Assembly: GCF_018143015.1 (NCBI RefSeq)
Contig: NC_054742.1
Span: 58,348,853 to 58,412,852, forward strand
Direction of reading: 5' to 3'
Length of the DNA: 64,000 bases
Origin: Lytechinus variegatus
Lineage: Eukaryota
Program-made: the position numbers and the translations under genes
Shown here: piece by piece, positions 1,849 to 33,365 of the stretch
Layout of the letters: every line of letters begins with the position of its first letter
Numbering within the stretch: position 1 is the first letter of the stretch
The notes under the pieces: generated by a model
Databases searched by the model: none
What the model saw: the letters and a program-made list of their open reading frames with translations, nothing else
What the model was told of the DNA's origin: nothing

Positions 1849-2015
1849 ATGGAATATGACGAAAGTGAGAAGAGGAAAGGATTTTCCTTTTCCTTTGCCA
1901 AGAAGAAACAAGAAACGAAAACCTTAGAATCTAAGAACATTGGTGATACGGAAATTTTGGAAAGCAAGACTGAAACGGACTACATTTTGTCAGTAGACTC
2001 AAAGAAAGTAACAAG
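1849..2015 (+). CDS. GPKOW: GPKOW orthologue, coding exon 1. ATG at 1849-1851, donor AG|GTACGT at 2016, phase 2.
   Basis: Translation MEYDESEKRKGFSFSFAKKKQETKTLESKNIGDTEILESKTETDYILSVDSKKVTR. The basic GF-rich N-terminus resembles that of vertebrate GPKOW. The phase joins to exon 2 exactly. Confidence 0.75.
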
Positions 2016-2470
2016 GTACGTTCACTAGCCTCAGTTTCAGTTCGTCAGCGGCTCAGCGTGAACTTATGCCGGAACCCACCCGGCGATGAACCAGGCATGA
2101 GTTGAGAGGCTCTGGCGCCGCAGTACCGCTTCGCAGGATTGAAAATTTACTTTTTCAGATTATGCTCGCTATATTTTTCATATAGGAACTTAGTGCCTAG
2201 ATCTATGGGCATTATCGTGATATTGGGAACCATCGTTCACTTCACACAGCAGCGCTTTATTCAGTCACACGCACGGTTCCCTATAGTATTTCCACTCATT
2301 CAGCTCCATTGACATTGTACACAAGTGCGCGTACACAAATCTACGAGTGGTTCCCAAAACCACGATTTGGCCGATCTATGTCTAGCTGGTCATATTTCCC
2401 AATCAATAACAGTAAAATTTTAAGTAATAATCAGTTTTTGCTTGTGCCTGTTTGGCATGTTGGAGTTCGC

Positions 2471-2562
2471 TCTAGTAGTCTAGTACTAGTACTACTAGTA
2501 CTAGTACTAGACTAGTACTAGTACTAGCCGGCCTACTACTAGTAGTAGTAGGCCGGCTAGTC
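2471..2562. repeat. Palindromic microsatellite (ACTAGT and CTAGTA units). It ends in a 37-bp perfect palindrome, ctagccggcctactactagtagtagtaggccggctag.
   Basis: Read directly from the sequence. Confidence 0.8.
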
Positions 2563-3270
2563 TTGACTTGAGGACGCAATGATGATGACTTTTTTAAAAT
2601 CAGACTGTCATATACTTCTTCATCATTGACGTCTTGAACAGGCCTTCATTGACATGTTGTAAGAGAACGGAGTAAACGAAGATGGATTTCCCTAGGAAAT
2701 ACATCTTTTCATATTACAGGATCGCGCGAAATATGTTTATTTTATTAATTTCTACACATTCCTACGCCTAATCATCTGATGCATAGGAAGGTTTATAAAA
2801 ATGTTAAATAAAAATGTACGAAATGTAAGAAAATGAAGGTTTCTTACCTAATTGATGCCGCGTAGACCCCTCGATCCACATGTAAACAACGGAAATACAA
2901 TAGCGTCGACCCTTGAACCGCTTATGTATGACATACATGTACATGTACTTCCGGCTAACTATGCCGTTTTGAAGCACTCACACAACATGCGAGGTTAGTA
3001 ATACTAACCTCGCACAACGCATGTGGTTTCATAGTGGACTTTGACGTTTTTCATTCATCACACGAATGTGAGGGAATGAAAAACGCCAAACGTTTCAGTA
3101 TTTCTCCACTATCGTATTATTATTTTAATAATTTAAGTTTGTTTTAAAAATGAATTGGAAATTGTTGATAAAAGTGTTTTTTATCGCTTACCTCCAAGTC
3201 TCAACCAGGATACTCCGTTCGATCCGTCCTTAATACGGCGGTGGAAAGTACGCCAACTAGGCCCGTTTCG

Positions 3271-4220
3271 GGTACACGTGTACACGTGTACACGCACGGT
3301 CAAGTCAGTGCACGTGTACTAAATTCCATCACCGTGTACACGGTAGCATCTGCATAAAGCTTGCGTGGGACTGTAAAGTCAGTGAACAAGCTCACAGCCT
3401 CACATTAATTCTTAGTTCTAAGACACTGCACATGTTTTAATCACTAATATATATATATTTCAATTAACCTTCCAAAATCGCCGATTTAATCCACATTTAT
3501 TCTGGAGACTCAAGTTTTTGTACCACACGAAATGGGTATGCTCCGGTCAGTGCAGGGCCCTAGTTAGCGCCGACGCTCGGTGGATGCGCACTTTGCATAC
3601 TGTACCGTACATACATGCACAGATTGCTGCAGAATTGAGTGTAACTGAAGTTATCGATTGATTTTCATTATTTTATTGCCAATTTGAGGAGTGTGTTTGT
3701 AGGCGTGTAGCACATGTGTATGAGCGTATAACACCTTACGAGACTCGAAAGCGTTCTTCAATCACTTTTAGAGTCAATTTGAGAATCACCAATTGCGACA
3801 GTTACGTGTTATACGGTCATAAACATATGCTACAAGCCTACAAACACACGCTCCTCAAATTGGCAATAAAATAATGAAAATCAATCGATAACTTCAGTTA
3901 CACTTAATTCTGCAGCGATCTGTGCATGTAGTACGGTACAGTATGCAAAGTGCGCATCCACCGAGCGTCGGCGCTAACTAGGGCCCTGCACTGATTTACT
4001 TTTGCATTCTTTATTAATTTAATGCGCTGCTAAGCTGAGTAAACTTTTTAATTGCACCAATTTTTGTGGATTGATACTTCTAACTTCTCAGGTAAGCTTT
4101 AAAACCGTGACTTAGGCTACATGTAGGAAACACTGAAAACATAATACTGTAACTCCTCTCACTCAGTGTTTACAACGTGTACACGTGTACACGACCGAAA
4201 AACACGCCGTGTACACGTGC
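3271..4220. mobile_element. Nested foldback element. It has outer clusters of the palindromic decamer CGTGTACACG (3271-3345 and 4175-4220) and inner long inverted-repeat arms of about 158 bp (3547-3704 and 3836-3994).
   Basis: Arm 1 (tcagtgcagggccctagttagcgccgacgctcggtggatgcgcactttgcatactgtaccgtac...) is the reverse complement of arm 2. The GTGTACACG motif occurs 7 or more times at the two outer ends. There is no ORF. It lies in GPKOW intron 1. Confidence 0.55.
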
Positions 4221-4470
4221 ATCAAAAATGGACTTTCAAACCAGGCCTAACGCAACAAAAAGCGAAAATTTTCGTATCAAACATTCTCATTTCAAGTCGT
4301 CAGTCAGCAATAATAGGAAATTGTACCAAAAATCATCTCATTGTATATAATATATACTTATTGGAAGTATGCCATCTTTTGACAAGATGATGATGAAAGT
4401 GTTGAACGAGCAAGAAAATAATGCTGATCGCCTAGAATGCAGCTAGCTTGCAAGACCGTAAACAAAGGTA

Positions 4471-4693
4471 CGGTAGGCACTTAAGAACCAAGTTTGAAAG
4501 GACACTCGTAAAATTACGTCACTGTCGCGATGAATATTCATTAGATCGTGGTCGTGCGTGTTCAATACAAACTCTCTGCATGCATGCACTCAGTGTGTAT
4601 TGAACACGCACGACCACGATCTAATGAATATTCATCGGCGAGAGTGACATAATTTTACGAGTATCCTTTCAAACTTGGTTCTTAAGTGCCTAC
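4471..4693. repeat. Near-perfect hairpin or foldback of about 220 bp. It has inverted-repeat arms of about 95 bp and a loop of about 30 nt (loop ...aaactctctgcatgcatgcactcagtgt...).
   Basis: The sequence ggtaggcacttaagaaccaagtttgaaaggacactcgtaaaattacgtcac...gtattgaacacg is mirrored by cgtgttcaatac...gtgacataattttacgagtatcctttcaaacttggttcttaagtgcctacc. Confidence 0.6.
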
Positions 4694-4974
4694 CGGCTTG
4701 GTGAATAATATCGCGCGCCCTCTTTAGGCAAAAATTGATATCCACGCTGAGCAGAAGTTATCTACGTGAAGATCACGAAAAATGCTCTTATTTTATTTAA
4801 AAAAACAGCAAAGAGAATTCAACGAACGATCCATATGGTTCGGTAAGTGCTATAGAACAAGTAGAATTCTTAGCTATGATGTAAAGTCATAGTTATTTTC
4901 GTAAAAAGGGTGTGAAAGATTCGCGTGCACCAGGTGCATATGAATCCTTCACACACGAGACGATTTGAAACCAT

Positions 4975-5560
4975 GAGTGGTTTTGAAGAACCATTTTATT
5001 ATTGCTTTAATTGCTTTAATACTACAAATTATTCATAATTACATAATGTTTTTTTCTCCTTCATTTGTTGATCAATTTCAATTTTGTTTGCTCGTGGTGG
5101 GAATTCTGAAACTCATTAAATATGCTAATTTATGCATTTTTTCAAAACTCACAAAAAAATGTTTCTTATTCACTTGTTGACTGATTTCGAATTTTTTATT
5201 CCATCTGAAAGCTACATGAGGTTCACCAAGGTCCTACACAGAATTTAGAAATTTTGACTAGAAGATTATTTATGCTTATTCATACAAAATTTATTCCTAA
5301 ATAACAAAAAAAGCTTCTTCTGTGTCATTTCTTCATCAATTTCAATTCTGTTTACTCAATTTATGTCACCAATATGATTCACTTCAATGTCAACTGGGCT
5401 CTTAGCTGAAATGAAAAATTGTGTTAAATTTCTTTGTGAGATACCAGATGAGCTCTACATCATTAATGTGCTAGTTGTAATGTGAGATTTATATTGCTTA
5501 TGACTAAACAGTATCATGGGTAGGATACACGCATTGTCATTAATCATGACTTTAAATCTG
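4975..5560. repeat. Truncated copy of the AGCTCATCCGGC-TIR element family. It is followed at 5586-5790 by poly-G and poly-C tracts and a 3x tandem repeat of about 45 bp (cccctgaYgagcttgaaRgaccttttttt).
   Basis: It aligns by eye to 20280-20760 (caatttcaattttgtttgct...ccatctga.agctacat.aggttcaccaaggt.ctacacaga.tt.agaaattttgactaga...). It lies in GPKOW intron 1. Confidence 0.5.
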
Positions 5561-6130
5561 ATAATAAGAGTCACTAGCGTACCTACGGGGGGGGGGGTGG
5601 GCAGTCTGCCCCCTGACGAGCCACAACCCATGCAAAGGACGCATCCCTGCCCCCCTGACGAGCTTGAAAGACCTTTTTTTGCCCCTCCCCTGATGAGCTT
5701 GAAGGCCTTTATTCCCCCACCCCCCCCCCCCCCCCCCCGACGAGCTTGAAGACCTTTTTTTTTTTGGCGGACATTTTTGCCCCCCCCCCTTGGAAAATCC
5801 GAAAATCCTAGGTATGCCACTGATAAGAGTCTACCCTGCTATTATGAGTCGAGCCTTTTTCAGCTCATTAACATAAATAAAGGAATTAAATCTTGCCAGT
5901 GACACGTTTACCTTGTCTGGGTTGAGTGCATCATAATGTGGATCAGTTTCTTGCTGTAAGAACTTTGACCATGGATGCCTTTGATCCATGACCCTCTATC
6001 TCAAAGTCTGGAGACTAATTCATTTTTGGCAGACAGTGCATGTGCATGCAACTCACTGCATGACAGTGGCTAATGAAGGTTTTTTAAATTGTTGAAATGT
6101 TAGACATTAAGATAATAATAACTTGTCATC

Positions 6131-6200
6131 CCTCTCGTCAAAAGAAATGAATGGTAGACAGATAAGATCATTGCAAAGGATGAGACAAGAATAAGATTAA
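6131..6200 (+). pseudogene. Decayed duplicate of about 70 bp of an internal segment of GPKOW exon 2. It lies in intron 1, about 75 bp upstream of the exon 2 acceptor.
   Basis: The copy cttgtcatccctctcgtcaaaagaaatgaatggtagacagataaga...ggatgagacaagaa matches exon positions 6302-6371 at about 85% identity. The copy has TAG where the exon has CAG, which is an in-frame stop. Confidence 0.6.
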
Positions 6201-6273
6201 TTGATACAAATGAAATCAAAACAATGTATGCTTTATTAATACAATATTCTGTATGCATTCAATTACATTGCAG

Positions 6274-6503
6274 TGTCATCCCTAAAGAGAAACCAAAGGA
6301 GCTTGTCATCCCTCTCATCAAAAGAAATGAATGGCAGACAGAGAAGAGCAGTGAGCAGGATGAGACAAGAAAACGACCAGCAGAGACTCATGGCAAAGAT
6401 GCTGAGCACAGCCACAGTTCCAAAAAGAAGCAGAAAGCTGAACAAAAGCCGAGTTCTCCTGTCAATTCTTTGGAAAATGAGGCCGTGAAGGAGATTATGG
6501 AAG
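6274..6503 (+). CDS. GPKOW: GPKOW coding exon 2. Acceptor ttgcag| at 6273, donor AAG|GTGTGT.
   Basis: Reads SVIPKEKPKELVIPLIKRNEWQTEKSSEQDE...NSLENEAVKEIME. The KELVIPLI motif is a conserved GPKOW N-terminal motif. Phases are 2 in and 1 out. Confidence 0.75.
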
Positions 6504-7227
6504 GTGTGTGTACTGAATTCACTGATGTAGTTGAGGCTGGAACTTCCAAATCACAAGGATGCTGGTAGAAACATTCTCCTGTAGACTTTGTCCATGTGAC
6601 TCGGGCTGAGGTGGGAAAAATTGGCTCAAGGCCAGCAAAATTTGGCTTCAAGGCAGGGCTCAACTACCATATGGGCACTAGTATTCAACCTGGCATAATT
6701 CAAAGATTTTGACATAGTCCCCAAAATATTTAGAAATAGGGAATTTGTCTTAATTTCATACATTTGTTATTTCCAGGGTAATCTGTTGTCGGATATTTTC
6801 TTCATCAATCTGTCGACTGTATGCGCGGACAGTCAGACCGCAGGTCCCTATGCTAATGAGCAAAAAGGCCAGATTCATCCAAATCATCTCGTGGCCGAAT
6901 CCTCCTCCTTGCAAACTCTCGTGATTTGTGAGATTTTCTTTCTCTAAGAATTTACCTGTTTTAACCTCAAGTTAAATGAAATATTATTGTACCATCAGAT
7001 AGAGTAAAAGTTGCTCTTTCATATTGGTCATTTATTTTGTATACAATATTTTGTTAAATAAGTAAATTTCTGGCCTGAAAATGTGCCTCAAAACTGAATT
7101 TTCTTCCTCTGTTTTCTTTTGCAAATTGTGCAAACTTTTTATTTTGAGCATCAATGATATCTATATCACCATAAAGCCGAACTTCTGTACTTTCTCACAA
7201 TGCCACTCTTGATATGCGGCACCTTTT

Positions 7228-7520
7228 AATCGGGTCAAGATCACACTTTTCCCATCAAGGTACAAGACGAGATTTCTGAAATTTTGTACTTGCATGAAAT
7301 CCAGAGTTCTGATTGGCTGGATAAGGTTCACAGAACAACAGGCGCAGGGTATTTGAGGAGATTACCACATGGGAAGTGTGACCTTCCCACGAACCCAGGC
7401 ACTGGAACCGTTGGAATTTGCCATTGTGTGGTCTCTTTGACCAATCAGAGTGCAGTATTCTTGTTTTCAAGCTGCTTTATGTACTTGGCAAATGAAAAGT
7501 GTGATCTTGACCCGATTAAA
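7228..7520. mobile_element. MITE of 293 bp with a perfect 26-bp TIR (TTAATCGGGTCAAGATCACACTTTTC), flanked by TTAA at both ends.
   Basis: The left end is ccttTTAATCGGGTCAAG and the right end is CTTGACCCGATTAAacc. Inward-facing inverted CCAAT/ATTGG motifs (ctgattggctgg, gaccaatcagag) lie inside. It lies in GPKOW intron 2. Confidence 0.55.
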
Positions 7521-7953
7521 CCAATTCTTATTTTGAAACCTATATCATTTCAAAGCATACATATTCAGCTTTATCATGATATAAAAATCATTTGGGCTCA
7601 AACAAAAATAAAGTGTGAAAATAGCAGCTTTTGTCAGGTGAAAATATTTATTTTGTAGCATATTTCAGATCAAAATTTTAACCTATATTACAAAATCTTT
7701 GAATAAATCCAAACACATGACCTGAAAGAATGATTCTTCTTCTTTACAATGGTACCAAATTCATGAAATTCGATGCACAATTAGAGCAGCAATGACCGAA
7801 TGAAAAGAGGTGTTTTGGTCCGCATCAAGCTCATTAAATATGCAAAACATCTCAAGTCATGAATATCACTTGGATGAAAGAAGCCACTTTCTTGGGACCT
7901 GCAGTCTGACTGCGGAGGATCGAATTATGCGGCGATGGCCTTTTGCACTGAAT

Positions 7954-8158
7954 GGCACTAGTATTCAACCTAGTGAGGATAGATAGCAAATCTCAAAAGG
8001 GTTTAGATTGCTAAATTAGATCTAGATCTATGTAAGTCTCTGGCTTTGATTAATTCCCTGTTTGGTCTCATCTCAAATGGTCTAGTCCATAGTCGGATGG
8101 GACAAGGGCAGATTGAGAGACAGGGCCATCTTTCATCGCTAGGTTGAATACTAGTGCC
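7954..8158. mobile_element. MITE of about 205 bp with a 17-bp TIR, GGCACTAGTATTCAACC. Extra solo or nested TIR copies lie at 6674-6690, 8164-8179 and 8332-8348.
   Basis: The same 17-mer occurs 5 times between 6674 and 8348, twice on the + strand and three times on the - strand. This indicates nested or adjacent copies of one MITE family in GPKOW intron 2. Confidence 0.55.
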
Positions 8159-8953
8159 GACGGATTGAATACTAGTGCCAAAAACCGTCGCCGTATAATT
8201 TGATCGCCCGCGCACACAGTCGACTGGTTGAAGAAAAAAATAACAGAAAAAGAATAACCAGCATTTGCTCTTGGAAAAAAGACGGGTCTGAAATTCAGGT
8301 AAATTATATATTCGAGGAAACTCTCCAAACGGGTTGAATACTAGTGCCCTTACGGTACATCTGTAAAAATGATGTACAGCTACATGTACTTGTGCAGTCA
8401 CATAAAATTAGAAAAAATACATACCTTTTAAAAAGGTCAGTCTCCTTTACATATGATTTTGGTTTGTAAGAAATGTAGAACAAGAGAATGTCTTGTGTGT
8501 TTATGTGAACAAGGAAATGCTGAGAGCTGTTTCTTAAACTGTTTGTTAGTTGCATGTATCACTTATGCACAGATGGTGCATGTTCTTATGTTTTAAGAAA
8601 GGTGGACTGAATTTACACTACAACCCAGATCAAATATTGACTACTGATATTAATTACCGGTATACTTTATATGACACCTAAATACATGTAGATCCTTGTT
8701 ATTTGGTTGCTTGTTTGATATTGATCATTCAGCCCATTTTCCAATGACATCATTTTTGTAATTTTGGATCCATACGATTTTGTCTATGGCAAGCGCTCAC
8801 TGAGACCACCGTCACGACCTGTAAACATCAAGGCTGTACAAACATTCGTGTTGCAGCGTACAACAGACTGCATTCGGCACGTCATTCAGCTGCATGCAGT
8901 GCATGCACTTTTGCATCTTGTTTTATTCCTGACTTGTTTGTTTTATTCATCAG

Positions 8954-9093
8954 ATGTATCAAGATACAGTGAGAAATGGGACGAGAGAGGTAAAGAGGAT
9001 CTGAATCTAACCATTCCACTTCTAATGCAGAACAAGGTCCCAGAGGGTTTCGAAACCGATGATAAATTAGATGTCTCCATCAGGCCGGATGCT
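8954..9093 (+). CDS. GPKOW: GPKOW coding exon 3. Acceptor ttcatcag|, donor GCT|GTAAGT.
   Basis: Reads DVSRYSEKWDERGKEDLNLTIPLLMQNKVPEGFETDDKLDVSIRPDA. The LTIPLLMQ box matches the second conserved N-terminal box of GPKOW (LAIPMIQ). Phases are 1 in and 0 out. Confidence 0.7.
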
Positions 9094-9861
9094 GTAAGTT
9101 TATTCCTTCAAATTTATTAGGGAGTGGTTTCACAAACAGTCATGCATTATACTGCTGTTCCCTGACAAAAGGAAACAATGCTGTGGAATGAGATTCTCAT
9201 TAAAATGCTTCATTATTTTGTGTGGAAATAAATAGGCCTATAGTTGCTTGCCATTAAAAACTCTATATTTCAGAAATTAGGGGTTACATGTATGTGACTC
9301 CAAAATCAAGATAAAAGTAAATGTTGAAAGAAAACCAGTTGCTTCCTTTTGTCATGGGACAGCAGAAGTATACCCAAGTTTACAAACATTGGGATTCATT
9401 AAGTGCAGTCATGCCTTACTTTGACACAAATCAAATTTTACGTCTAATCAACAAATACCTCTTCATTATCAAAGCATGTACCACTTAAATATGGTATCAA
9501 GTTATTAGGAGAAGTTATTCTTTCAGGATATATACATTGCGTCCCAGAAAATAATGAAACTGTAATATGGTGTAATATTTGGCTATCATAATCATAAATT
9601 TGCTTCATGAGATGTATATATGTGTTTGGAATGGCATGCTTATAGCATTTGAAGCCCACCAACATTCATAATGCATGCATGATGAGTTAGAACAATAGAC
9701 AGTGGTGCAACCAAACTTTTAATTTGCACATGCAAAGTGTGTCATCGATAGAGTTTTTCACTTTCACTGCTCTCCATTCGGAAAACCATTTCATAACTTT
9801 AGTATCCACCTTTCTTTTTCATATGCCCGTTCTAGACGGGGTGTACTATGGTATCATGCTC

Positions 9862-10150
9862 GGTGTCCGTCCATTAACTTTTCCTTGTAAATGCGGTAAT
9901 TTCAGTTTGACTTAACCTATGATACCAGCATGGATCCCAGGAAGCCAATTGATTTTGAGGTTAAAAGGTCATAGGTCAAGGTCACAGTGACATGTTTTCA
10001 TCTTTCCCTTCTGAAGTCCTTGTAAACGCGATAACTTCAGTTTAACTTAACCTAGGCTCATATAATTTGTTTTGTATGATACTCGCATGGATCCCATGAA
10101 GCCAATTGATTTTTAGGTCAGACAGTCAAAGGTGAAGTCACCACCTACTT
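9862..10150. repeat. Tandem duplication of 2 units of about 145 bp (...cagtttaacttaacctag...catggatcccaggaagccaattgattttgaggt..ggtcaaggtca...).
   Basis: Two adjacent copies were read directly. It lies in GPKOW intron 3, next to the mariner relic. Confidence 0.6.
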
Positions 10151-10252
10151 TTCTTGCCTGACCAATAACTCCATTTTCGGTGTTACAGGCGGGCGTATTA
10201 TGGGCTCGCCTTAGCGACACCCTTGTTTTATTTTCAAATGTTGGTAGGCCTG

Positions 10253-10870
10253 CTATCTGTATAGTTGTGCACATTTTAGTATGAAATACATTTTTGGGGG
10301 GAAAAATACAGTTTTTTTTAAATCACAGAATACAGTTTTTAATTCCCAGAGGTTGGCAGGTCTGTCTATCGCTTCATTGATTCTGGCTCTGAGATCTTCA
10401 AGATCATAAAGAGTGACAAAGACTTTCCCTTGAGAAAGCACCAAAGAAAGAAGACAAAGGGATAAGGTTTGGACTCCATGGAGGCCTTTCCATGGGATGG
10501 TTCGGATGTTGTGACTGGGAGACACAGTCATCCATGAAAAAAAAAAGAGACTCGACGACATCCTGTAGGGATACCATCTCATCTCTTGCCAAAAGTGTGA
10601 TGAAATGAAGATTTGGATATCACCAGCCCATTTCATGGATACTTGGAGGTTTTCTTCGATGGTACACCTTACTGCTGCCATATTTTCCTTTGATCTGACA
10701 GTCCTTCTTGGACCAGATCGCCCCTTGTTGAGATTGATGCTTGTTCCTTCTTGCTCATATTTCCTAACATTTCTCCCAAGCGTTGATTTCATTGCCTTGT
10801 GAAAATTGCTCATGGAAGGCTGCTGCAATTTGTTGCTGGCTCCCAGAACGAGACCAGTCCGTCACAATAA
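10253..10870 (-). pseudogene. Mariner-like (Tc1/mariner) transposase relic, frameshifted.
   Basis: The minus-strand ORF 10828-10253 reads ...NKGRSGPRRTVRSKENMAAVRCTIEENLQVSMKWAGDIQIF... This resembles the mariner transposase N-terminal HTH region (ERSGRP...D...LRAIIE.DP..T.RE.A). A second frame (10592-10404) reads LQDVVESLFFFMDDCVSQ...PNHPMERPPWSPNL, resembling the DE.W....P....QW region. No intact ORF remains. It lies in GPKOW intron 4. Confidence 0.45.
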
Positions 10871-11367
10871 AAAACCTTTGCTCTGTGCTTAGCTGTATGG
10901 TCAGGCCAGCTTTCCTTTATTCGTTTAAATGTTGACCCTATTTATTCCCGAACTATAACATTGCCTTTTATTTCCCTGTTGGTGTAAATTATTTGAAGCA
11001 TCATGACCAATGTACGATGCTGAGTAGGGAAACCTAAATGGCCCCTTATTCAACTATCTCTGGGTAAAATTGAAGCATAGTAGCCTCATGAAACATTATG
11101 GATATTGAGGCTGTGATTATTTTCTTTTTGCAATAGATAGTGGAAAAAGGCAGAAAAACTCACTCAAACTCCTAATTCACTCATGCAAATGAAAATTTGG
11201 TTGCACTGTCATGCTTGCACTGTGAGCATTGAGTTTAATAGGCTTCAAATGGAAAAAAAGAGAAGGCAGATCTTTCCATTATGTACATATCATGAAGCAA
11301 ATTTATTATCATGATAGGAAAACATTACACTTAATTTCTTTTCACCACGCTGTATTTTATGTTTCAG

Positions 11368-11474
11368 GCTACCGAGGCTAACTACGAAGAGATTCCCATT
11401 GAACAGTTTGGTATGGCTATGCTTCGTGGAATGGGGTGGAAGGAAGATGAGGGAATAGGAAATAAGCTGAAAAA
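11368..11474 (+). CDS. GPKOW: GPKOW coding exon 4, first half of the G-patch domain.
   Basis: Reads [36 protein letters not shown]. This is the canonical G-patch core (GxAMLxKMGWKxGxGLG). Acceptor gtttcag|, donor AAAAA|GTAAGT. Confidence 0.85.
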
Positions 11475-12139
11475 GTAAGTGAAGATTGTTTAATTAATAA
11501 ATAATTATAATAATGATACATTGTATTTATATAGCGCTAAATACATGGTGTTTCTAAGCGCTTTACAAAACGATTAAGTAGCATACATTAATATAATTGA
11601 ACATTTTAACAAACAAAAAAGGAAATGTACAGTGTAAAGTATTTTCATGTTACAAATTAGCTAAGAAAACTGCCTACTCAAGTTGGGAAATACAAAATAA
11701 TGATAATAATAAAAGCAATGAGATTTATTAATTAAATAGTTCTAATACAATAAGTTAAACAAAATGAATTATCAGAAATACAATGACTTATAAATTATGT
11801 TCGAATAATAAAGCAGTGCAATAGCTAAACATACACAAACAAGAAATAAAGGAATATTCTTTAAGTATTGACAAGATTAACTTAAAACGGAAAGGAAGAA
11901 TTGTAAAGGTTTGCTTTGAGAGGGAGCATCCTAAAGCTAGGAATGTCTTATGTATATTTACCACATAAATTTATTGATGGATATGTGATAGCGCACAACT
12001 CCAGATCATGATCTGACCATTATGACACACATCTAGCAATTTAAATGTGATATTTATTAATCAGACTTAACTTTAAGTGAAACATCCCTAGATTGTATTG
12101 ATTGAGAATACGTGCACGACTTTGTTTCATTGATCCCAG

Positions 12140-12349
12140 AGTTGTAGAACCCATTGAAGTGACTGTGCGACCCAAAGGTCAAGGGCTCGGCGCAGACAGA
12201 CGACCCGAGATGCTCTGAACAAGAAAAAGAAGCGAAGGAGAAAACCGGGAGAGCCAGCTGTGAAGGAAGAAGAAGGAGAACCAAAAGGTTTTTCAAAGGG
12301 AGCTCATGTTCTTGTGTGCAGTGGTCCACACAAGAATCTTTATGGAATG
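12140..12349 (+). CDS. GPKOW: GPKOW coding exon 5, carrying the end of the G-patch and KOW motif 1. The frame is disrupted near 12204-12216 by an in-frame TGA at 12216-12218.
   Basis: Frame 0 gives KVVEPIEVTVRPKGQGLGADRRPEML* and then stops. Frame +2 continues RDALNKKKKRRRKPGEPAVKEEEGEPKGFSKGAHVLVCSGPHKNLYGM, which is KOW motif 1. An apparent 1-nt indel lies between the two frames. Donor ATG|GTATAT at 12350. Confidence 0.6.
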
Positions 12350-12966
12350 GTATATCTTCTTTCTTTTAAGTTTTGTTAAACTGAGCAATTATATAAAATA
12401 GTCAACCAATTAGTGCATGGAACCCCCATTTTTCTCAGTTTTTACTGCACTTCATGAGCCTTTGGGCAATTCCATAAAATATGTGTGTCCGATCCCCTAT
12501 ATGTGGGACCTTTATGAAATTTTCGTGTCTGATTTTTTTGTACTTTCGACAGTCTATAATGTTCTCTAATTGACCATGACTTGGTCAGTTTATGTAGTGA
12601 AGTGAGACTTGAGAAAAAATGGTGGTCGAAGGTACAAAAAAAGTAGATGGAATTGCCATTTTCAAGCCATGATAAATTGAGTCCATTACACCTTTTAATG
12701 TGAAACATTTAAAACAGAAACAAATAATTTCAGCAAGGTCACTCATAAAGAGGGTCAGATGTAATACTTTTTTGAATTGGCAAAATATCCCATTATTTTG
12801 TCATTCAACTCTATTTTGGTATGAAAAAAACATAGGTTAACACTTGTAGATTATAGATGTGTATTACCTTCATTATTACGAAATATTTTGAGTAAATTTT
12901 GCCATTTAGATTCCGTTATGAATGTCACTCTTTTCACAACAATCCTGACTGTACTTAATACCCTAG

Positions 12967-13106
12967 ATTGAAGGTGTGGATGAAGATAATTCTCGGGTCG
13001 TCATCAAGTTTGCCTTGAGCAACCAATCAGCAACTCTTAGCCAGTTTGCAGTTCAGCTAGTCTCAAAAGAGGAATACAAGAAATAATCTAAAGATCTACT
13101 CGCGCG
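12967..13106 (+). CDS. GPKOW: GPKOW coding exon 6, carrying the rest of KOW motif 1. An in-frame TAA sits at 13084-13086. Removing one base in aagaaataatc restores a phase-1 junction to exon 7.
   Basis: Reads IEGVDEDNSRVVIKFALSNQSATLSQFAVQLVSKEEYKK*. With 1 nt removed it reads ...KEEYKNNLKIYSR(g), which parallels vertebrate ...QQEFDKNTLDLRQQNG. Acceptor ccctag|, donor CG|GTAAGT at 13107. Confidence 0.55.
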
Positions 13107-14292
13107 GTAAGTGGATTAGAACAGATGAATAACTTTAATTATCATGGAATTGTTACACATCATCAAGAACGTTAGTAAGAATCACACGCCGGAGATACCT
13201 AATGAAAATCATGGACTTCTTGCATCATAAGCATACTCCCATCCTTATAAAAATTGATGAGAACACTTTAATATGATTCCTTATAAGAAATCTTCAATTG
13301 ACATTGTTTTATAGACAATGCGATACCCCTTGAATTGCATTCTTTATCTTTTCCATTTGCCTGTTTGGAGAAGGAATGTTGATGTGAATAAGAAACTATG
13401 GAAAACAAATTTTCTTTCTTTTTGCAATATTTACATAGGGTTGCATTTGTTAGACATTCACTCACTTTTTTAAAACAAATGCAATTTGCGGCATCCCAAT
13501 TATTACAGGATTATGTCAAATTATGTCACCCGTGCTGTTTTAAGTCGTACATAACTTTCAGTATATAAAACAGTCTCCCCCCATCATGCAAACATCTGTG
13601 ATGACAAACTATATGATGATATAATCAATGATATGATTGATATTTTTCATTTCTCATTAGTTTAAGTCTGAGGTGTATTCCACTCTTTAGCTGTGTATAA
13701 TAATGACTATAAAAATGATATGGATGATGATGATAGTAATAATGATAATATGAAATAATGCATGTAAGCGTGTGCATGCAGGGCCAATAATGAATGATGT
13801 GCGAGAAGAGGCAATGGATCTACCACAACGAGGTCCGCAGGACCGAGTGCAGTATATCCATTTGGCGAGTTGAGCACAGGTCCTCTAGCACAAGAATGCT
13901 GTCGTACTAAAACCTCCCTAAAAATCCTGTTAAACAGACAATGTGAGCACCAGAAACAATGAAGACATAGGCCCTGAGCAAATTATGTTTCATAAAGTTG
14001 TGAAAAACATGTTTCATATGTCATATAACATAATAATGATAAAATATATGTTTCTCTTCCTTTTCCCTCTTTTTCACCTTTCCCGGTTTTTTTTTTGCCA
14101 GTCGATTGGGGGGGGGGATGTGCCCCCCCCCATGCCCCCCCTACCCCCATAGTTACACCACTGTCACTGTTGTTGACCAATTCCTCAGGATTATTCCAAA
14201 GTAGTTAATTCACAATAAGATTTTGATTTTTGCACAGTGATTGTGATGTGCGCAAATTTTTTTACTGCTATTCATTATGTTTCATTTCTTAG

Positions 14293-14707
14293 GGAAGTTT
14301 AGTCGAGGTCATGATGAATTGAAGAAGAGAGAGGACCAGACATCGCAGGATGATAGTGAATCGGATCGGAGGAAACACAAACACAAGATTGATAAAGATA
14401 GGACTAGCAGTAGTAGACATGATAAGCATTCTAGAGACAGGAGAAAAGAGGATGGAGATGGGTCGGATAAGTATTCTAAACGGGACAGATATGAGGATAG
14501 GGAGAGATATGAAAATGGCGAGCGTCACAGAGACAAACACACTTCAAGAGATGATCGACGGAGAGATGATAAGGATTATGACAGATCAAGAACTAAAGAC
14601 GATAGGCATCGGAAAAGAGATGATGACAGGAAGGACTCCAGTCAAAGGAAAGAGGAGAGAACAGATAGATCGGTCAAGCATCATTCAGATTATGATAGGC
14701 ATTCTAG
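14293..14707 (+). CDS. GPKOW: GPKOW coding exon 7, an Arg/Asp/Ser-rich low-complexity region.
   Basis: An open frame of 138 codons reads KFSRGHDELKKREDQTSQDDSESDRRKHKHKIDKDRTSSSRHDKHSRDRRKEDGDG...SVKHHSDYDRHSR. Acceptor tttcttag|, donor AG|GTATGT at 14708. The outgoing phase 2 joins exon 8 exactly. Confidence 0.7.
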
Positions 14708-15308
14708 GTATGTGAATGACAGATTCTAGATCATGCTCTGTTAGTGCCTTGCAGTGCCTCTCTTACTTGCCTATTTTAGGCAGAAATGTCGGCTATATCT
14801 TTGCTGCTTCACTCTTATTATCAAGAAATGTTCAGTTGCAGTTGTTCCAAGCTCACATGCACGGCACTGTACATTGGCTTTTGCATCGGATTGGGTACCC
14901 ATTCAACACCTGGGTTGAGAGTGGCAAATTGTAGATTGATGCCTTGCAAAAGGATATGAGTATCATGGTGGGATTCAAATACACAACCTGTGTCCTATTT
15001 CATGAAAGCATCATAACTCCAGCTGGACACTATCTCAATGGAAAGCCAAGCTGGTCAAATATCATCTGTGATGTCTGCTTTCCATTTGCAATATGTGTCT
15101 ACAATTTGTCTAACCAGTGGATTGTCCATAGGCTTGGCTTTCCATATGGCATAAATTTAGAGTTGTGATACCTTCATTAAATGGGACAGAGTACACCACA
15201 TTACATTTAAAATGTATTAACTTGACACACTCCATGAATACTGATTGATGTGTACTGTTTTTTGTTTCATAAATCTATGATTTATTTTTTTCTTGTCCCA
15301 TATTGTAG

Positions 15309-15475
15309 CTCAAATTCTGAGAAGACGACCTACTGGTTGCGCCCTGATTTGAGAGTACGCTTTATTGACGCGACCTACAAGAAGGGCAAGTATTACAATG
15401 TCAAGGTCAAGATTGTCGATGTCATCACCAGAGATACTTGCACGTGTCAAACAGATGATGGCAGATTTATTGAAG
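15309..15475 (+). CDS. GPKOW: GPKOW coding exon 8, the start of the C-terminal KOW motif 2 region.
   Basis: Reads SSNSEKTTYWLRPDLRVRFIDATYKKGKYYNVKVKIVDVITRDTCTCQTDDGRFIEG. This aligns with vertebrate HWLHRDLRVRFVD..YKGGQYYNTKM.IEDV...DTC.CRTDEGR..EG. Acceptor tattgtag|, donor AAG|GTAAAG. Confidence 0.85.
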
Positions 15476-16284
15476 GTAAAGACAGTCAGTAACTTTGTCC
15501 AGGATTGACAATCTTTATTATACGACCTAGATAGATCCTTGTGATTTGATTGGTTGTTTCATAACGTTCATCCACCCTATTTTGCAATGACATCACCAAC
15601 CGTGCAATTTTGGATCCATTCATTGCGCAAGTTTGGATGCGTACGATTTTATCCATTGCACGCACACACCAAGATAACTGCAGCTGCAGGCACCAGCAGT
15701 GCGCATGTTGTAATGACGTAACAGTTAACAGACCGAACTCGCATTGCATGAGAATGTTTTGCATCGAAATTCATAAATTTCATATGAAAAAAAAATTAAG
15801 TGTCATATAAACCAAATAATGAATGTTTTTTCATTCGTGCAATGGACAGATAACTTCATGAGGAGAAAGATGAAATAATGATTACGCCTCGTTGAATGGA
15901 TCATTATTTCATCTTTCACCTCATGAAGTATTCTATCCATTGCACTGATAAACATTCATTATTTGTATATTGATCAAAATCACATATTAACCTAGTAATT
16001 CATTCAGAATCCTGTCGGTTAAACAGAACAGCCATAGCTTAAATAAGTCAAGTAGTCAGCTATTCCAGTAGCAAGTGTTACTTGTATCTCAGAAGCATTT
16101 CTTTTGAGATTATTTTTCTAGTTTACTGCTTTGTTTTATATTTCGAAGCGTAATATTGCTCTCAACCCCCCCCATGACTTGGATAATAAAATTTACATGT
16201 ATATCAAGGCTGGGAAATTGATGGAAATGCGTTTGTCTATTTGGGAAAAGCAAAAGGTCGTTGTAAAAACAAATCTTGGTTTTT

Positions 16285-17558
16285 GTCTCACCTGCGAAGC
16301 AAAGTGAGACTTAGGCGCCGCTTTTCCGACGGCGACGGCGGCGGCGGCGGCGGCGTCAACATCAAATCTTAACCTGAGGTTAAGTTTTTGAAATGACATC
16401 ATACTTAGAAAGTATATGGACCTAGTTAATAAAACTTGGCCATAAGGTAAATCAAGTATTACTGAACATCCTGTTAGAGTTTCATGTCACATGACCAAGG
16501 TCAAAGGTCATTTAGGGTCAATGAACTTAGACCATGTTGGAGGAATCAACATCGAATCTTAACCTGAGGTTAAGTTTTTGAAATGTCATCATAACTTAGA
16601 AAATATATGGACCTAGTTCATGAAACTTGGACATAAGGTTAATCAAGTATCACTGAACATCCTGCATGAGTTTCACGTCACATGACCAAGGTCAAAGGTC
16701 ATTTAGGGTCAATGAACTTTGGCCGAATTGGGGATATCTGTTGAATTCCCATCATAACTTTGAAAGTTTATGGATCTGATTCATGAAACTTGGACATAAT
16801 AGTAATCAAGCATCACTGAACATTTTGTGCAGGTTTCAGGTCACATGATCAAGGTCAAAGGTCATTTAGGGTCAATGAACTTTGGCCGAATTGGGGATAT
16901 CTGTTGAATTCCCATCATAACTTTGAAAGTTTATGGATCTGATTCATGAAACTTGGACATAATAGTAATCAAGCATCACTGAACATTTTGTGCAAGTTTC
17001 AGGTCTCATGATTAAGGTCAAAGGTCATTTAGGGTCAATGAACTTTGGCCGAATCGGGGGTATCTGTTGAATTACCATCATAACTTTGAAAGTTTATTGG
17101 TCTAGTTCATGAAACTTGGACATTAGAGTAATTAAGTATCACTGAACATCCTGTGCATGTTCAGGTCACATGTCCAAGGTCAAAGGTCAATGAACTTTAG
17201 CCGAATTGGGTGTATCTGTTGAATTACCATCATAACTTTGAAAGTTTATGGATCTGATTCATGAAACTTGTACATAAGAGTAATCAAGTATCACTGAACA
17301 TCCTGTTCCAGTTTCAGGTCACATGATCAAGGTCAAAGGTCATGTAAGGTCAATGAACTTTGGCCATGTTGGGGTTTTTTGTTGAATAACCATCATATCT
17401 CTGTAAGTTTATTGGTCTAGTTCATAAAAAGAGGACATAAGAGTAACCATGTATCACTGAACATCTTGTGCGAGTTAGAGTAGTATGCAAAGTCAGCACT
17501 GCTGCTATAGTGAACCGCGTGATGCAGGTGAGACGGCCAGAGGCATTCCACTTGTTTT
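16285..17558 (+). mobile_element. Composite non-autonomous element of about 1.27 kb, copy 1. It has an 11-bp TIR (GTCTCACCTGC ... GCAGGTGAGAC) enclosing a GC-rich (GGC)n head and about 6 tandem units of a satellite of about 180-200 bp (core GACCAAGGTCAAAGGTCATTTAGGGTCAATGAACTT).
   Basis: The ends and the internal tandem array were read directly. A near-identical second copy with the same ends lies at 40037-41138. The two copies diverge immediately outside the shared ends. This copy lies in GPKOW intron 8. Confidence 0.6.
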
Positions 17559-18264
17559 TCACGAAGTTCTATGACATTTCTCTAATGGAAGAAAACTAGT
17601 GGAGAGATGCCCTTAGGGAGGTCATGTTCTAGGAAATAGTCAGATGGGAATAAGCCAGTTTATAGTTGGCTCATGAGCTGCTTTTTCCTAAATTACCTTA
17701 TCCTTTTTTTCAATGGGAGAAGCGATAACACTTTCCAGATTGGGATATTTCCCAACATAGCATCATGTGGTATAAAGAAAGCTATGCTATAGACCAGTAC
17801 TGACTGCACAGAAGCGTTATTAGCGCTAACAATAGGCTAACAGAGGCCCTGTTACAACTGGTATGGGGCAGCGATGCCTAATGTTACAACAAAAATTTGT
17901 GGTCATGGAAAGTCAGGGAGTTTGGAAAATTTGTGAAAAGTCATGGAATTGCATTTACCTCTTGGCTATGGCAGCTTTCCAGTTTGTTGTATCTCGCAAC
18001 TCTCATACTCTATGATCATACTCTGCTATTATGATTGGTGTCGATGATTTCCATTTTCCCAGGTTTGTAACATCCCAAATTAAAAAACTCCCGGGACGTC
18101 ACAGGAAGTCATGGAAGGCAGCAATTTAGTCATTGAAAAGTCATGGAATTCTGTTTTCAAATTTCTGTGGGAACCATGCCTATGTATCAAGGAGCATTCT
18201 TGCTTGTTTAAGTTTCGATAATATTGTATTTCAACTTTTTATATCATCCATTTTTTTCTTGCAG

Positions 18265-18350
18265 ATATCCATCAATCTATGCTGGAGACACTCATACCAA
18301 AAACCGATCCTGGATACATTATGGTTGTCAGTGGGAAGTACAAAGGCCAG
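18265..18350 (+). CDS. GPKOW: GPKOW coding exon 9.
   Basis: Reads DIHQSMLETLIPKTDPGYIMVVSGKYKGQ. This aligns with vertebrate L.EDMLETLVPK..GDRVMVV.GP..G. Acceptor cttgcag|, donor CAG|GTCTGT. Phases are 1 in and 0 out. Confidence 0.8.
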
Positions 18351-19283
18351 GTCTGTCCACTGTTATCTTCTATCTACTCATAGCCCATTTTTTCTGCCTG
18401 CACAAAGTTCAGCAGATACCCTAGTGATCACTTTTCCTGTTAGTCTTAGTCTGTTACAAAAATGTTTTTGTTCAACTTGCTGTCATTTCTTTATTTTTGC
18501 ATCAATTAAATTCATATTTGGTACAAATGATCCCTGGGTAATGCCACATGTGTGCCCATGAGGGTGTTGGGATCAAAAGGTCGTGTTTGGGGGGGGGTGG
18601 AACGAGTATTGCGAGACAGTAAATTAAAGGTGAGTATTAAAAGGGGGCGGGGTTCACAGTAAGCTAAGTGCAATTCCCCATTCTATCTGACAACAGTACT
18701 ATTAAACACATGTTGAGAATTGGGGACGAATGACTGCCTAAAACGTACTCTGTTTGACACAGACACAGAGGCGAACACCGGACCTATTGAAGTTATAATT
18801 GTAGTGTAGAGGGTGAGATTGATCTTTTAAGATAGCCTGAACTTTAGCCAGTAATCTCCCGTTGTACAGAGTTCAATTGGGAGTAATTCAAGACCGATTA
18901 TTTTCTGGGCAATTTTCCGTGGACGTTTAAGCTTCTCTTTGTCCGATTTAGTAAGGTTGCTATAGAAGCAAATTATGTTGAACATTAAGGGATCATATTG
19001 CATATTTTATTGATCGCGAAATCAGGCGAGACTCTTGGTTCATGAACCACCGTGTCTTTCAATAAATCTCTTTCCCCAAAATGCATCACATTTGTGACAA
19101 TACATGGCATAACCAAGAAAATGACACTCTGTGATTCACAGTTAGAGGATATCAAATGTGATTTTGATCAGAAGGGTCATTTTCATTTTCTATATATTTC
19201 TTAAAAAAGTTACTTTTTATTATACGCTGTAAAATAGTAGTACCAAACAAACTTAAAAGGCAATTTTTTTATTATTGTTTTTA

Positions 19284-20719
19284 GCTCATCCGGCCCGAAG
19301 GGCAAGATGAGCTTATGCCGTGGCGTGGCGTGTGTCTCCGTCGTCCATCCACAATTCAAAATGCTATTCTTCACCATTTCAAGTCCGATTTCAATTCTGT
19401 TTGCACGAGGTGGGGCATTCAAAACTTTTACACAGAATTTTGAAATTCATTAAATATGCTAATTTATGCTCATTTTTCAAAATTCACAAAAAATGCTACT
19501 TCTTCTTTATTTGTTGACCGATTTTGATTTTTTTTTGCTTCATCTGGTAGAGCTTCATGAGGTTCACAAAATTCTACACAGAATTTTGACCAGAACAATT
19601 TTTATGCTAATTTATGAGAAATTAATTTATACATATTTTAAAAAATTCACATAAAATGCTTCTTCTTTTTTATTTGTTGACCGATTGTGAATTTTTTGCT
19701 TCCATCTGGTAGAGCTTCATGAGGTTCACCAATCTTCTACACAGAATTTTGAAATTTTGAACAAAAGAATTTTTTATGCTAATTTATGCGAAATTTATGC
19801 ATATTTTTAAAAATTCACATAAAATGCTTCTTCTTTATTTGTTGACCAATTTTGATTTTTTTTTCTTCCATCTGGTAGAGCTTCATGAGGTTCACCAATC
19901 TTGTACACAGAATTTTGAAATTTTGACTCGAGCAATTTTAGGCTAATTTATGCGAGATTTATTCAGAAATCACAGAAAATGCCTCTTCTTCTTTATTTGT
20001 TGACAGAATTTGATATTTTTCTTCCACCCGGTAGACTTCATGAGGCCCACCAAACTTCTACACAGAATTTTGAAAATTTTCAACAGAAAATTATTTATGC
20101 TAATTTATGCGAAATGTATTCATAAATCACAGAAAATTCCTCTTCTTTATTTGTTGCCAGATTTTGATTTTTTTCTTCCATCTGTTAGAGCTGCATGAGG
20201 TTCACCAAACTTGTACACAAGTTTTTGAAAATTTGTCTGGAAAATTATTTATTCTCATTTATGCAAAATTTATTCATAAATCACTAAAAATGTTTTTTCT
20301 TCTTCATTTGTTGATCAATTTCAGTTTTGTTTGCTTTATATGATAGCTCGAGGTGGTGATACAAAATTTAAACATAGAATTTTGAAACTCATTGAATCTG
20401 CTATTTATTCATATATTTTCAAAACTCACAAAAATTGCTTACTTATTTGTTGATTGATTTTGGTTATTTTTGTTCCATCTGAGAGCTACATTAGGTTCAC
20501 CAAGGTTCTACACAGAGTTAAGAAATTTTGACTAGATAATAATTAATACTTAATTCATATGAAATTTATTCATAGATTACAAAAAATGCTTCTATGTCAT
20601 TTCTTCATCAATTTCAATTCTATATCCTCAATTTATTGTCACCAATATAATTCACTACATTGTCAGCTGGGCTGAAATTAAAATTTTGTTAAATTGTGTT
20701 GCGAGATGCCGGATGAGCT
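19284..20719. mobile_element. Non-autonomous DNA element of about 1.4 kb with a 12-bp TIR, AGCTCATCCGGC. It carries about 7 internal tandem units of about 150 bp (...ttcttccatctggtagagcttcatgaggttcaccaa...cacagaattttgaaatt...).
   Basis: The left end is tttAGCTCATCCGGCccgaagggcaagatgagct, which is itself a hairpin. The right end is gatGCCGGATGAGCTccacatcattgatgtgctagtt. A truncated homologous copy with the same 3' end (gataccagatgagctctacatcattaatgtgctagttg) lies at about 4975-5560. Confidence 0.55.
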
Positions 20720-21070
20720 CCACATCATTGATGTGCTAGTTACAGTTAAATACACCCATATTTTGTTTTTACCCCCCAAAATAATATATTGCAATTCTTT
20801 TTCGTGATAACCAAAGTACAGTAAGCCCTTTTTTTAACTCCCCCAAAATTTACATTGCGTAGGACTTTGAAATACAAATCTTTCTTAGCAGCCACCTGTC
20901 TATAATGAAAACTTTATCTTTAGTTGACACCTAAGTTGTTTCCCATTTGAATAGAATGTGTCAAAGAACTCATTTTGACTGAACAGTTTTGACTGAACTT
21001 TGAAAAAGGAGAAACATTTATCATCAATGTTAACACTGGATGGTTCTTTTTATTTACAATTTCATTACAG

Positions 21071-21211
21071 ATTGGTACCGTTCTCAAGAGGGACAAAGCT
21101 AATTGCCAAGCCAGTGTTCAGCTGCTGAGAGAGAGAGACCGGATCATCAAGATGGATTATGATATTATATGTGAATTTGCTGGAAATATACATGATGAGG
21201 AAGATTACTGA
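21071..21211 (+). CDS. GPKOW: GPKOW terminal coding exon, ending in stop codon TGA at 21209-21211.
   Basis: Reads IGTVLKRDKANCQASVQLLRERDRIIKMDYDIICEFAGNIHDEEDY*. This aligns with the vertebrate C-terminus (VGHLLSRDRARSRALVQL.REN.VV.LHYDAICQY.G). Acceptor cattacag|. Confidence 0.85.
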   Translation: MGTVLKRDKANCQASVQLLRERDRIIKMDYDIICEFAGNIHDEEDY

Positions 21212-30363: not shown

Positions 30364-30505
30364 ATGGGAGGTGAAGAAGAAAGATCCAGTAGTGATCTGA
30401 CAGTTGGATTGTTGCTTGCCATCAGCTCAACGGTATTTATTGGATCAAGTGGGATAGTCAAGAAGAAGGCTCTTATTAAGATTCATGCATATGCAACAAG
30501 AGCAG
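30364..30505 (+). CDS. NIPA-family Mg2+ transporter (NIPA2-like), coding exon 1. ATG at 30364.
   Basis: Reads MGGEEERSSSDLTVGLLLAISSTVFIGSSGIVKKKALIKIHAYATRA. This matches NIPA TM1 (GL.LA..SS.FIG.SFI.KKKGL). Donor CAG|GTATGT. An upstream acceptor-like site (ctccctag at about 30322) suggests a further 5' non-coding exon. Confidence 0.8.
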
Positions 30506-33360: not shown

Positions 33361-33365
33361 TGCAG

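What the first reader, a model, noticed from the sequence alone, without database searches (positions are those of the whole stretch)
12140..13106. The GPKOW orthologue has two independent apparent single-base frame disruptions in consecutive exons
Exon 5 encodes an intact G-patch up to GLGADRR and then hits TGA at 12216. The KOW-1 motif continues perfectly in the +2 frame from about 12206 (RDALNKKKKRRRKPGEP...KGAHVLVCSGPHKNLYGM). Exon 6 hits TAA at 13084. Deleting one base in aagaaataatc gives ...KEEYKNNLKIYSR with a phase-1 junction that joins exon 7 exactly. That reading parallels vertebrate ...QEFDKNTLDLRQQNG. The other eight exons are intact, with canonical splice sites and conserved motifs. 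Two compensating indels about 880 bp apart point to assembly indel errors, which may reflect low consensus quality. The alternative is a very young pseudogene or a polymorphic null allele of a normally essential spliceosomal factor. It cannot be both.
Basis: partly seen in the sequence, partly recalled or inferred. Interest (0 to 1): 0.6.

Follow-up and report, generated by a model that had tools for sequence, protein, structure and literature searches.

The report
Broken GPKOW gene in urchin assembly
In the Lytechinus variegatus reference sequence, the sea urchin copy of the essential splicing factor GPKOW carries three small reading-frame-breaking changes in two neighbouring exons, yet it otherwise evolves like a working gene, so the changes are most likely assembly errors or at most one broken allele, not a dead gene.

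Summary
The window is Lytechinus variegatus. Its NIPA2-like gene encodes XP_041460181.1 exactly, exon by exon. The GPKOW locus (10 exons, 1849-21211, + strand) is collinear with the L. pictus GPKOW-NIPA2 locus, so it is the true orthologue.

The disruptions are in the sequence, but there are three, not two. Exon 5 has lost one base (CCC-GA against CCTGGA), which gives TGA at 12216. In exon 6 the TAA at 13084 is a point change of a conserved Tyr codon (TAT), not an indel. The frame break in exon 6 is a 7-bp insertion (13098-13104) just before the donor. A third urchin shares the L. pictus state at all three sites, so all three lesions are derived here.

Everything else looks functional:
- All splice sites are canonical.
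- All other indels are multiples of three.
- dN/dS is 0.10 overall, and 13 synonymous to 1 non-synonymous between the lesions.
- This lineage has no excess of amino-acid changes.

An old pseudogene is excluded. The tools cannot separate consensus or polishing error (favoured, about 0.55) from a real lesion-bearing haplotype (about 0.3). Read mapping would decide. Interest is low.

The parts
1849..2015 (+). GPKOW exon 1 (start codon at 1849)
   Evidence: tblastn of L. pictus GPKOW P0001. Boundary is homologous to the L. pictus exon, donor GT.
6274..6503 (+). GPKOW exon 2 (+3 nt, in frame, against L. pictus)
8954..9093 (+). GPKOW exon 3
11368..11474 (+). GPKOW exon 4 (first half of the G-patch)
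12140..12349 (+). GPKOW exon 5. Holds the second half of the G-patch, the linker and the start of KOW-1. It is 210 nt against 211 nt in L. pictus.
12204..12218 (+). Lesion 1. One base is missing (CCC-GA against CCTGGA in L. pictus and CCGGGC in a third urchin), between 12207 and 12208. The resulting stop is TGA at 12216-12218.
   Evidence: DNA alignments; frame switch in tblastn
12464..12658 (.). Repeat insertion of about 195 bp in intron 5, absent from L. pictus intron 5. It lies between the lesions. Any link to them is speculative.
   Evidence: blastn: the flanks 12001-12463 and 12659-13347 abut in L001 (17875/17872). 12476-12640 matches L001 15721-15559 on the other strand.
12967..13106 (+). 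GPKOW exon 6 (KOW-1 end and linker). It is 140 nt against 133 nt in L. pictus.
13084..13086 (+). Lesion 2. TAA replaces the conserved Tyr codon (TAT in L. pictus, TGT in a third urchin). This is a point substitution, not an indel.
13098..13104 (+). Lesion 3. A 7-bp insertion (ACTCGCG; placement is ambiguous by a few bases) lies directly upstream of the donor GT at 13107-13108.
   Evidence: The sequence is unique in the window.
14293..14707 (+). GPKOW exon 7 (R/D/K-rich linker; +15 nt, in frame, against L. pictus)
15309..15475 (+). GPKOW exon 8 (start of GPKOW_C; -6 nt, in frame)
18265..18350 (+). GPKOW exon 9
21071..21211 (+). GPKOW exon 10 (stop codon at 21209-21211)

Best explanation
This is the single, syntenic, functional GPKOW gene of Lytechinus variegatus. 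GPKOW is the G-patch cofactor of the spliceosomal helicase DHX16/Prp2. The three frame-breaking differences in exons 5-6 are most likely local faults of the reference consensus: long-read consensus error, short-read polishing error or haplotype mixing in a highly heterozygous genome. They are probably not features of the living gene.

Shown:
- The lesions are in the given sequence.
- They are derived relative to two other urchins.
- The gene has otherwise been under strong purifying selection in the conserved frame, right across the stretch that is out of frame as assembled.

Inferred: the lesions arose in the assembly process rather than in the animal.
For: 1. Species and orthology. The window encodes L. 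variegatus NIPA2-like XP_041460181.1 at 100% per exon. It is collinear with the L. pictus GPKOW-NIPA2 locus.
2. All 10 exons keep AG/GT at homologous positions. The other exon length differences are +3, +15 and -6.
3. dN/dS against L. pictus is 0.10 overall. It is 0.018 (13 synonymous: 1 non-synonymous) in the 92 codons between lesions 1 and 3, and 0.137 downstream. dS is 0.18.
4. I polarised the amino-acid differences by eye on the outgroup alignment. That gave 2 changes on the L. variegatus side (plus the nonsense) and 7 on the L. pictus side, so constraint is not relaxed here.
5. All three lesions fall in 344 of 1797 coding nt. The chance of that is about 0.04 (my arithmetic), which points to a local cause.
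6. Lesion 1 is a GG-to-G length change next to a CCC run, a typical long-read consensus error.
7. GPKOW is required for splicing and its loss is lethal in humans (PMC4266926, PMC5558180). No second L. variegatus GPKOW-like protein exists in the 5.8-billion-protein collection, although L. variegatus proteins are held there.
8. The collection also lacks a GPKOW protein from S. purpuratus. For L. pictus it holds a single GPKOW accession, although NIPA2 has accessions of two series for that species. I read this as the gene also failing to be annotated in other assemblies, including one of a species whose gene is demonstrably intact. That the two accession series are two annotation rounds is my inference from the numbers.
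Against: - Only one of the three lesions looks like a classic homopolymer error.
- A T-to-A substitution that creates TAA and a 7-bp non-repetitive, CpG-rich insertion are unusual for consensus error. They look more like real mutations.
- The neighbouring NIPA2-like gene (about 1.03 kb of coding sequence matched to its protein in the window) has no lesion, so the window is not generally of poor quality.
- The intron sequence around the lesions is not unusually divergent or gap-rich against L. pictus.
- No reads, transcripts or second assembly of L. variegatus could be consulted.
Confidence: 0.55

Rival explanations
1. The lesions are real and sit together on one haplotype of the sequenced animal. 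This would be a heterozygous null allele of GPKOW, with an intact allele on the other haplotype that the collapsed assembly does not show. Three independent hits on a recessive-lethal allele are very unlikely. So they would probably stem from one clustered mutational event, for example error-prone repair, perhaps linked to the repeat insertion in intron 5.
For: The lesion spectrum (1-bp deletion, nonsense substitution, 7-bp insertion) resembles real mutations more than consensus noise. The lesions cluster within 900 bp around a lineage-specific repeat insertion of about 195 bp. No relaxed constraint is seen, as expected if the allele is very young. From my own knowledge, sea urchins are highly heterozygous and highly fecund marine invertebrates carry many recessive lethals.
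Against: Three disabling changes in one allele of an essential gene require either long persistence, which is implausible for a lethal, or a rare complex event. There is no direct evidence for a second haplotype. The link to the repeat insertion is speculation.
Confidence: 0.3
2. This locus is a very recently inactivated pseudogene that is fixed or common in L. variegatus. Function would be supplied by another copy, such as a recent duplicate or retrocopy, elsewhere in the genome.
For: There are three independent-looking disabling lesions. No protein product for this locus appears among L. variegatus proteins in the collection, which fits a pseudogene call by the annotators.
Against: - This is the ancestral syntenic locus with all introns.
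- No other L. variegatus GPKOW-like protein turned up.
- dN/dS is 0.10, and 0.018 between the lesions.
- There are fewer derived amino-acid changes here than in L. pictus.
- All other indels are multiples of three.
- By my rough estimate, enough neutral time for three lesions would also give about 15-20 extra non-synonymous changes.
Confidence: 0.08
3. The assembled sequence is correct and still functional. Either a truncated 240-residue G-patch-only protein, like yeast Spp2, suffices, or the message is repaired by recoding (frameshifting, readthrough or editing).
For: The product as assembled keeps the complete G-patch. From my own knowledge, yeast Spp2 works without KOW motifs. The two frame errors cancel.
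Against: The KOW and GPKOW_C parts downstream of the first stop are under strong purifying selection in the conserved frame. There are five stops in the shifted stretch. No known recoding mechanism repairs a -1 shift, a TAA and a +7 shift together. A premature stop in exon 5 of 10 would normally trigger nonsense-mediated decay.
Confidence: 0.02

Closest known systems
GPKOW / MOS2 / Spp2 family (G-patch cofactor of the DEAH helicase DHX16/Prp2)
   Same: After repair the product has G-patch_2 and G-patch, two KOW stretches and the GPKOW C-terminal domain. Over the 367-residue query (exons 3-8) it is 92% identical to L. pictus GPKOW and 43-58% identical to other deuterostome GPKOWs; the full-length alignment gives 96% to L. 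pictus. The exon structure and gene neighbourhood match L. pictus.
   Different: As assembled, the open reading frame ends after the G-patch at residue 240. The spliced sequence holds five stops before it returns to frame in exon 7.
Frameshift and stop artefacts in long-read assemblies of heterozygous genomes (the cases NCBI labels 'LOW QUALITY PROTEIN' or calls pseudogenes)
   Same: An otherwise perfectly conserved essential gene is interrupted by small local changes. One of them is a GG-to-G length change.
   Different: Two of the three changes (a substitution to TAA and a 7-bp insertion) are not the usual single-base homopolymer errors. That this is an artefact is inferred, not shown.
Unitary (non-processed) pseudogene
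   Same: It sits at the ancestral locus, keeps its introns and carries several disabling lesions.
   Different: There is no relaxation of constraint and no excess of amino-acid changes. All other indels are in frame. The gene is essential in other organisms (PMC4266926, PMC5558180).

Membership tests
GPKOW orthologue | G-patch domain | tested here: met
   PF12656 at 83 bits and PF01585 at 39 bits, residues 177-235, both above the curated cut-offs. Present even in the product as assembled.
GPKOW orthologue | Two KOW motifs | tested here: met
   PF00467 at 55.6 bits, 2 stretches, in the repaired product only. KOW-1 lies in the stretch that is out of frame as assembled.
GPKOW orthologue | GPKOW C-terminal domain | tested here: met
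   PF25088 at 138.9 bits, residues 482-590, covering the full profile.
GPKOW orthologue | Orthologous position (conserved neighbours and exon structure) | tested here: met
   Collinear with the L. pictus locus from the upstream intergenic DNA to NIPA2. Ten exons with homologous boundaries.
GPKOW orthologue | Uninterrupted open reading frame | tested here: not met
   A -1 shift at 12207/8, TAA at 13084 and a +7 shift at 13098-13104. The spliced translation has five stops.
Long-standing pseudogene | Relaxed selective constraint (dN/dS near 1, excess lineage-specific changes, indels of any length) | tested here: not met
   dN/dS is 0.10. Polarised changes are 2 here against 7 in L. pictus. The other indels are +3, +15 and -6.
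Processed pseudogene / retrocopy | Loss of introns and a new genomic location | tested here: not met
   All nine introns are present and the locus is syntenic.
Assembly or consensus artefact | Raw reads or independent sequence of the same species disagree with the assembled bases | not testable with these tools
   No L. variegatus reads, transcripts or second assembly could be reached. Exact-product look-ups failed. No near-identical protein was found.
Assembly or consensus artefact | Error types typical of the platform (single-base length errors in short runs) | tested here: inconclusive
   Lesion 1 fits (GG to G after CCC). Lesions 2 and 3 do not fit well.

The most novel reading that the evidence does not exclude
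The three lesions are real and lie on one haplotype. That would make this a natural null allele of an essential spliceosomal cofactor, created by a single clustered mutational event around a young repeat insertion in intron 5 and carried heterozygously by the reference animal.
Probability: 0.3. Interest if true: 0.3.

Novelty: not a real feature. Interest (0 to 1): 0.12.

Why it matters
The main consequence is practical. The L. variegatus reference probably lacks a usable protein model for an essential splicing factor. Anyone using this assembly for orthology tables, BUSCO-like counts, morpholino or CRISPR design, or expression analysis should treat exons 5-6 of GPKOW with caution and use the repaired reading. 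If the lesions proved real, it would be a small case study of genetic load, or of clustered mutation, in a highly heterozygous marine invertebrate. It would not be a new kind of biology.

Tried and rejected
1. Independent L. variegatus sequence.
   - Exact-product look-ups found nothing for the exon-7 ORF, the last NIPA2 coding-exon ORF, L. variegatus NIPA2 P0123 and S. purpuratus NIPA2.
   - Of the four sea-urchin (echinoid) proteins I looked up from named assemblies, only the two from L. pictus (GCA_037042905.1) were on record with gene positions.
2. A second protein search with a short exon 5-7 query collected only 43 candidates and missed even L. pictus. It did not answer the question, but it gave the third-urchin contig L003.
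3. The L. variegatus genome paper (Davidson et al. 2020) is not held. The sequencing and polishing methods are therefore from my memory only and are not used as evidence.
4. The homologous frame runs on through the TAA to SKDL.
5. Alternative splice sites cannot rescue the frame, by my inspection of the sequence:
   - No GT or GC donor in exon 6 gives a phase-1 junction upstream of or around the insertion.
   - The next AG acceptor in exon 7 runs into a stop.
   - Skipping exons 5 and 6 removes 350 nt, which is not a multiple of three.
6. The antisense ORF over exon 5 (12057-12329, 90 aa) has no support and is ignored.
7. Rfam and tRNA scans of the window found nothing.

Full report
**What the window is.** The sequence is sea urchin DNA. 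A conceptual translation of exons 3-8 of the flagged gene finds GPKOW proteins. The best hit is Lytechinus pictus at 92% identity, followed by Diadema, starfish, sea cucumbers and hemichordates at 43-58%. The next gene downstream (30364-37113 and beyond) encodes, exon by exon at 100% identity, the NIPA2-like protein XP_041460181.1 of Lytechinus variegatus. The window is therefore from the L. variegatus reference assembly, on a 75.8-Mb chromosome record. A blastn comparison with the L. pictus locus (L001) is collinear from the upstream intergenic DNA through all GPKOW exons to NIPA2. This is the ancestral, intron-containing orthologue, not a retrocopy or a dispersed duplicate.

**Gene model.** I fitted the L. 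pictus exons exactly to its protein and projected them onto the window. This gives ten exons: 1849-2015, 6274-6503, 8954-9093, 11368-11474, 12140-12349, 12967-13106, 14293-14707, 15309-15475, 18265-18350 and 21071-21211. Each has AG and GT at the homologous positions. Exon lengths differ from L. pictus by +3 (exon 2), -1 (exon 5), +7 (exon 6), +15 (exon 7) and -6 (exon 8).

**Checking the observation.**
- Exon 5 reads ...RPKGQGLGADRRPEML and stops at TGA 12216-12218. The KOW-1 region continues in another frame. DNA alignment shows GACGACCC-GAGATG in the window against GACGACCTGGAGATG in L. pictus and ...CCGGGCGATG in a third urchin (ENA contig L003). One base is missing at 12207/12208. This part of the finding is correct.
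The alignment has no indel there. AAATAATCT against AAATATTCT is a T-to-A substitution in a conserved Tyr codon (TGT in the third urchin). The same frame continues to encode the conserved SKDL.
- The frame error of exon 6 is a 7-bp insertion, GATCT[ACTCGCG]CG|gtaagt, at about 13098-13104. It lies immediately before the donor, is absent from both other urchins, and is unique in the window.
All echinoderm and hemichordate orthologues read KK(Y/F)S.D(L/I) and then G/S-K/R-F/L-S across the junction.
- There are therefore three derived lesions: -1, nonsense and +7. The two frame errors cancel (1803 nt, in frame overall), but the shifted stretch contains five stops.

**Is the gene evolving like a dead gene?** No.
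- After repair, dN/dS against L. pictus is 0.10 (56 synonymous and 25 non-synonymous differences, dS 0.18).
- In the 92 codons between the first and last lesion it is 0.018 (13 synonymous, 1 non-synonymous). Downstream it is 0.137.
- I polarised the amino-acid differences by eye with Diadema and more distant outgroups. Two derived changes fall on the L. variegatus side (plus the nonsense codon) and seven on the L. pictus side.
- All other indels are multiples of three.
- The repaired product has G-patch_2, G-patch, two KOW stretches and a full GPKOW_C domain. The product as assembled has 240 residues and keeps only the G-patch.
- By my rough estimate, the neutral time needed to collect three disabling lesions in 1.8 kb would also bring some 15-20 extra non-synonymous changes. 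Nothing like that is seen.

A long-standing pseudogene is excluded. The lesions are either extremely young or not biological.

**What they most likely are.** GPKOW is needed for splicing in vitro and binds DHX16 (PMC4266926). A human splice variant is male-lethal (PMC5558180). No second L. variegatus GPKOW-like protein is present in the protein collection, although L. variegatus proteins such as NIPA2 are. A fixed loss is therefore very unlikely.

A recessive-lethal null allele would not persist long enough to gather three independent hits. All three lesions fall within 344 of 1797 coding nt, which has a chance of about 0.04 and suggests one local cause. Two local causes are possible.
- **A local fault of the consensus** (long-read error, polishing error or haplotype mixing in a very heterozygous genome). 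I favour this at about 0.55. In its favour, lesion 1 is a typical GG-to-G length error. The collection also lacks a GPKOW protein from S. purpuratus. For L. pictus it holds a single GPKOW accession, although NIPA2 has accessions of two series for that species. I read that as the gene also going unannotated in other assemblies, including one of a species whose gene is demonstrably intact. That reading is an inference from the accession numbers.
- **One clustered mutational event on a single haplotype**, about 0.3. In its favour, a substitution to TAA and a 7-bp CpG-rich insertion are not typical consensus errors. The neighbouring NIPA2 gene is clean. The surrounding intron is not unusually gap-rich. 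A lineage-specific repeat insertion of about 195 bp (12464-12658) lies between the lesions, but any link to them is speculation.

A recent pseudogene backed by another copy (about 0.08) and a functional truncated or recoded product (about 0.02) are poorly supported.

**What could not be done.** No reads, transcripts or second assembly of L. variegatus were reachable. The assembly paper is not in the library.

**Verdict.** The gene is an ordinary, known GPKOW orthologue. Most probably they are not a feature of the organism. Interest is low, and the value lies in flagging a faulty gene model in a widely used reference.

Noticed in passing
window 6122-6211 (and L001 13544-13639): A partial copy of the 5' part of GPKOW exon 2 (LVIPLVKRNEW*TDK...) lies about 150 bp upstream of the real exon 2 in intron 1. 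It has an in-frame stop and is present in both L. variegatus and L. pictus, so it is an old tandem pseudo-exon.
   Followed up: partly
protein collection: No GPKOW protein from L. variegatus or S. purpuratus is in the collection, and only one L. pictus GPKOW accession is. The NIPA2 neighbours of L. variegatus and S. purpuratus are present, and L. pictus NIPA2 has accessions of two series. The gene may be mis-annotated or called a pseudogene in several urchin assemblies.
   Followed up: partly
window 12464-12658: An insertion of about 195 bp in GPKOW intron 5 is absent from L. pictus at this site. It matches a dispersed repeat elsewhere in the L. pictus locus (L001 15559-15721, opposite strand).
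   Followed up: partly
window 16356-17476 and 40097-41056: There are two arrays of the same 163/191-bp tandem repeat family (about 5 copies each). One is in GPKOW intron 8 and one is downstream of NIPA2. The same family sits in L. pictus GPKOW intron 1 (L001 11233-12187).
   Followed up: no
window 19455-20408 (also 5052-5478): A 154-bp tandem array (about 5 copies, 77% matches) lies in GPKOW intron 9. It is related to sequence in window intron 1 and to L001 20212-20681 (L. pictus intron 6).
   Followed up: no
window 14095-14150: GPKOW intron 6 holds long G and C runs (ggggggggg...ccccccccc...ccccccc). Sequence of this kind is prone to length errors in any sequencing chemistry.
   Followed up: no
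window 30364-37113: The NIPA2-like magnesium transporter gene (+ strand, 5 coding exons seen here) is intact and identical to XP_041460181.1. The last 12 residues of that protein (HMKSTSERVRFL) are not in the long exon that ends at 37113, so they must come from a further exon downstream.
   Followed up: partly
window 55147-55506 (- strand): A 119-residue ORF has a hydrophobic start and a Ser/Thr/Asp-rich tail. It looks like a terminal exon of a membrane protein and was not identified.
   Followed up: no
L003 (ENA assembly ERZ26222911, contig ctg647616_3x_l, 9263 bp): A metagenome-labelled contig carries exons 4-9 of a sea urchin GPKOW gene, with exon matches 74-80% identical to L. variegatus at the protein level (excluding one weak 35% match). 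This is host DNA in an ENA assembly, and the species is unknown.
   Followed up: partly
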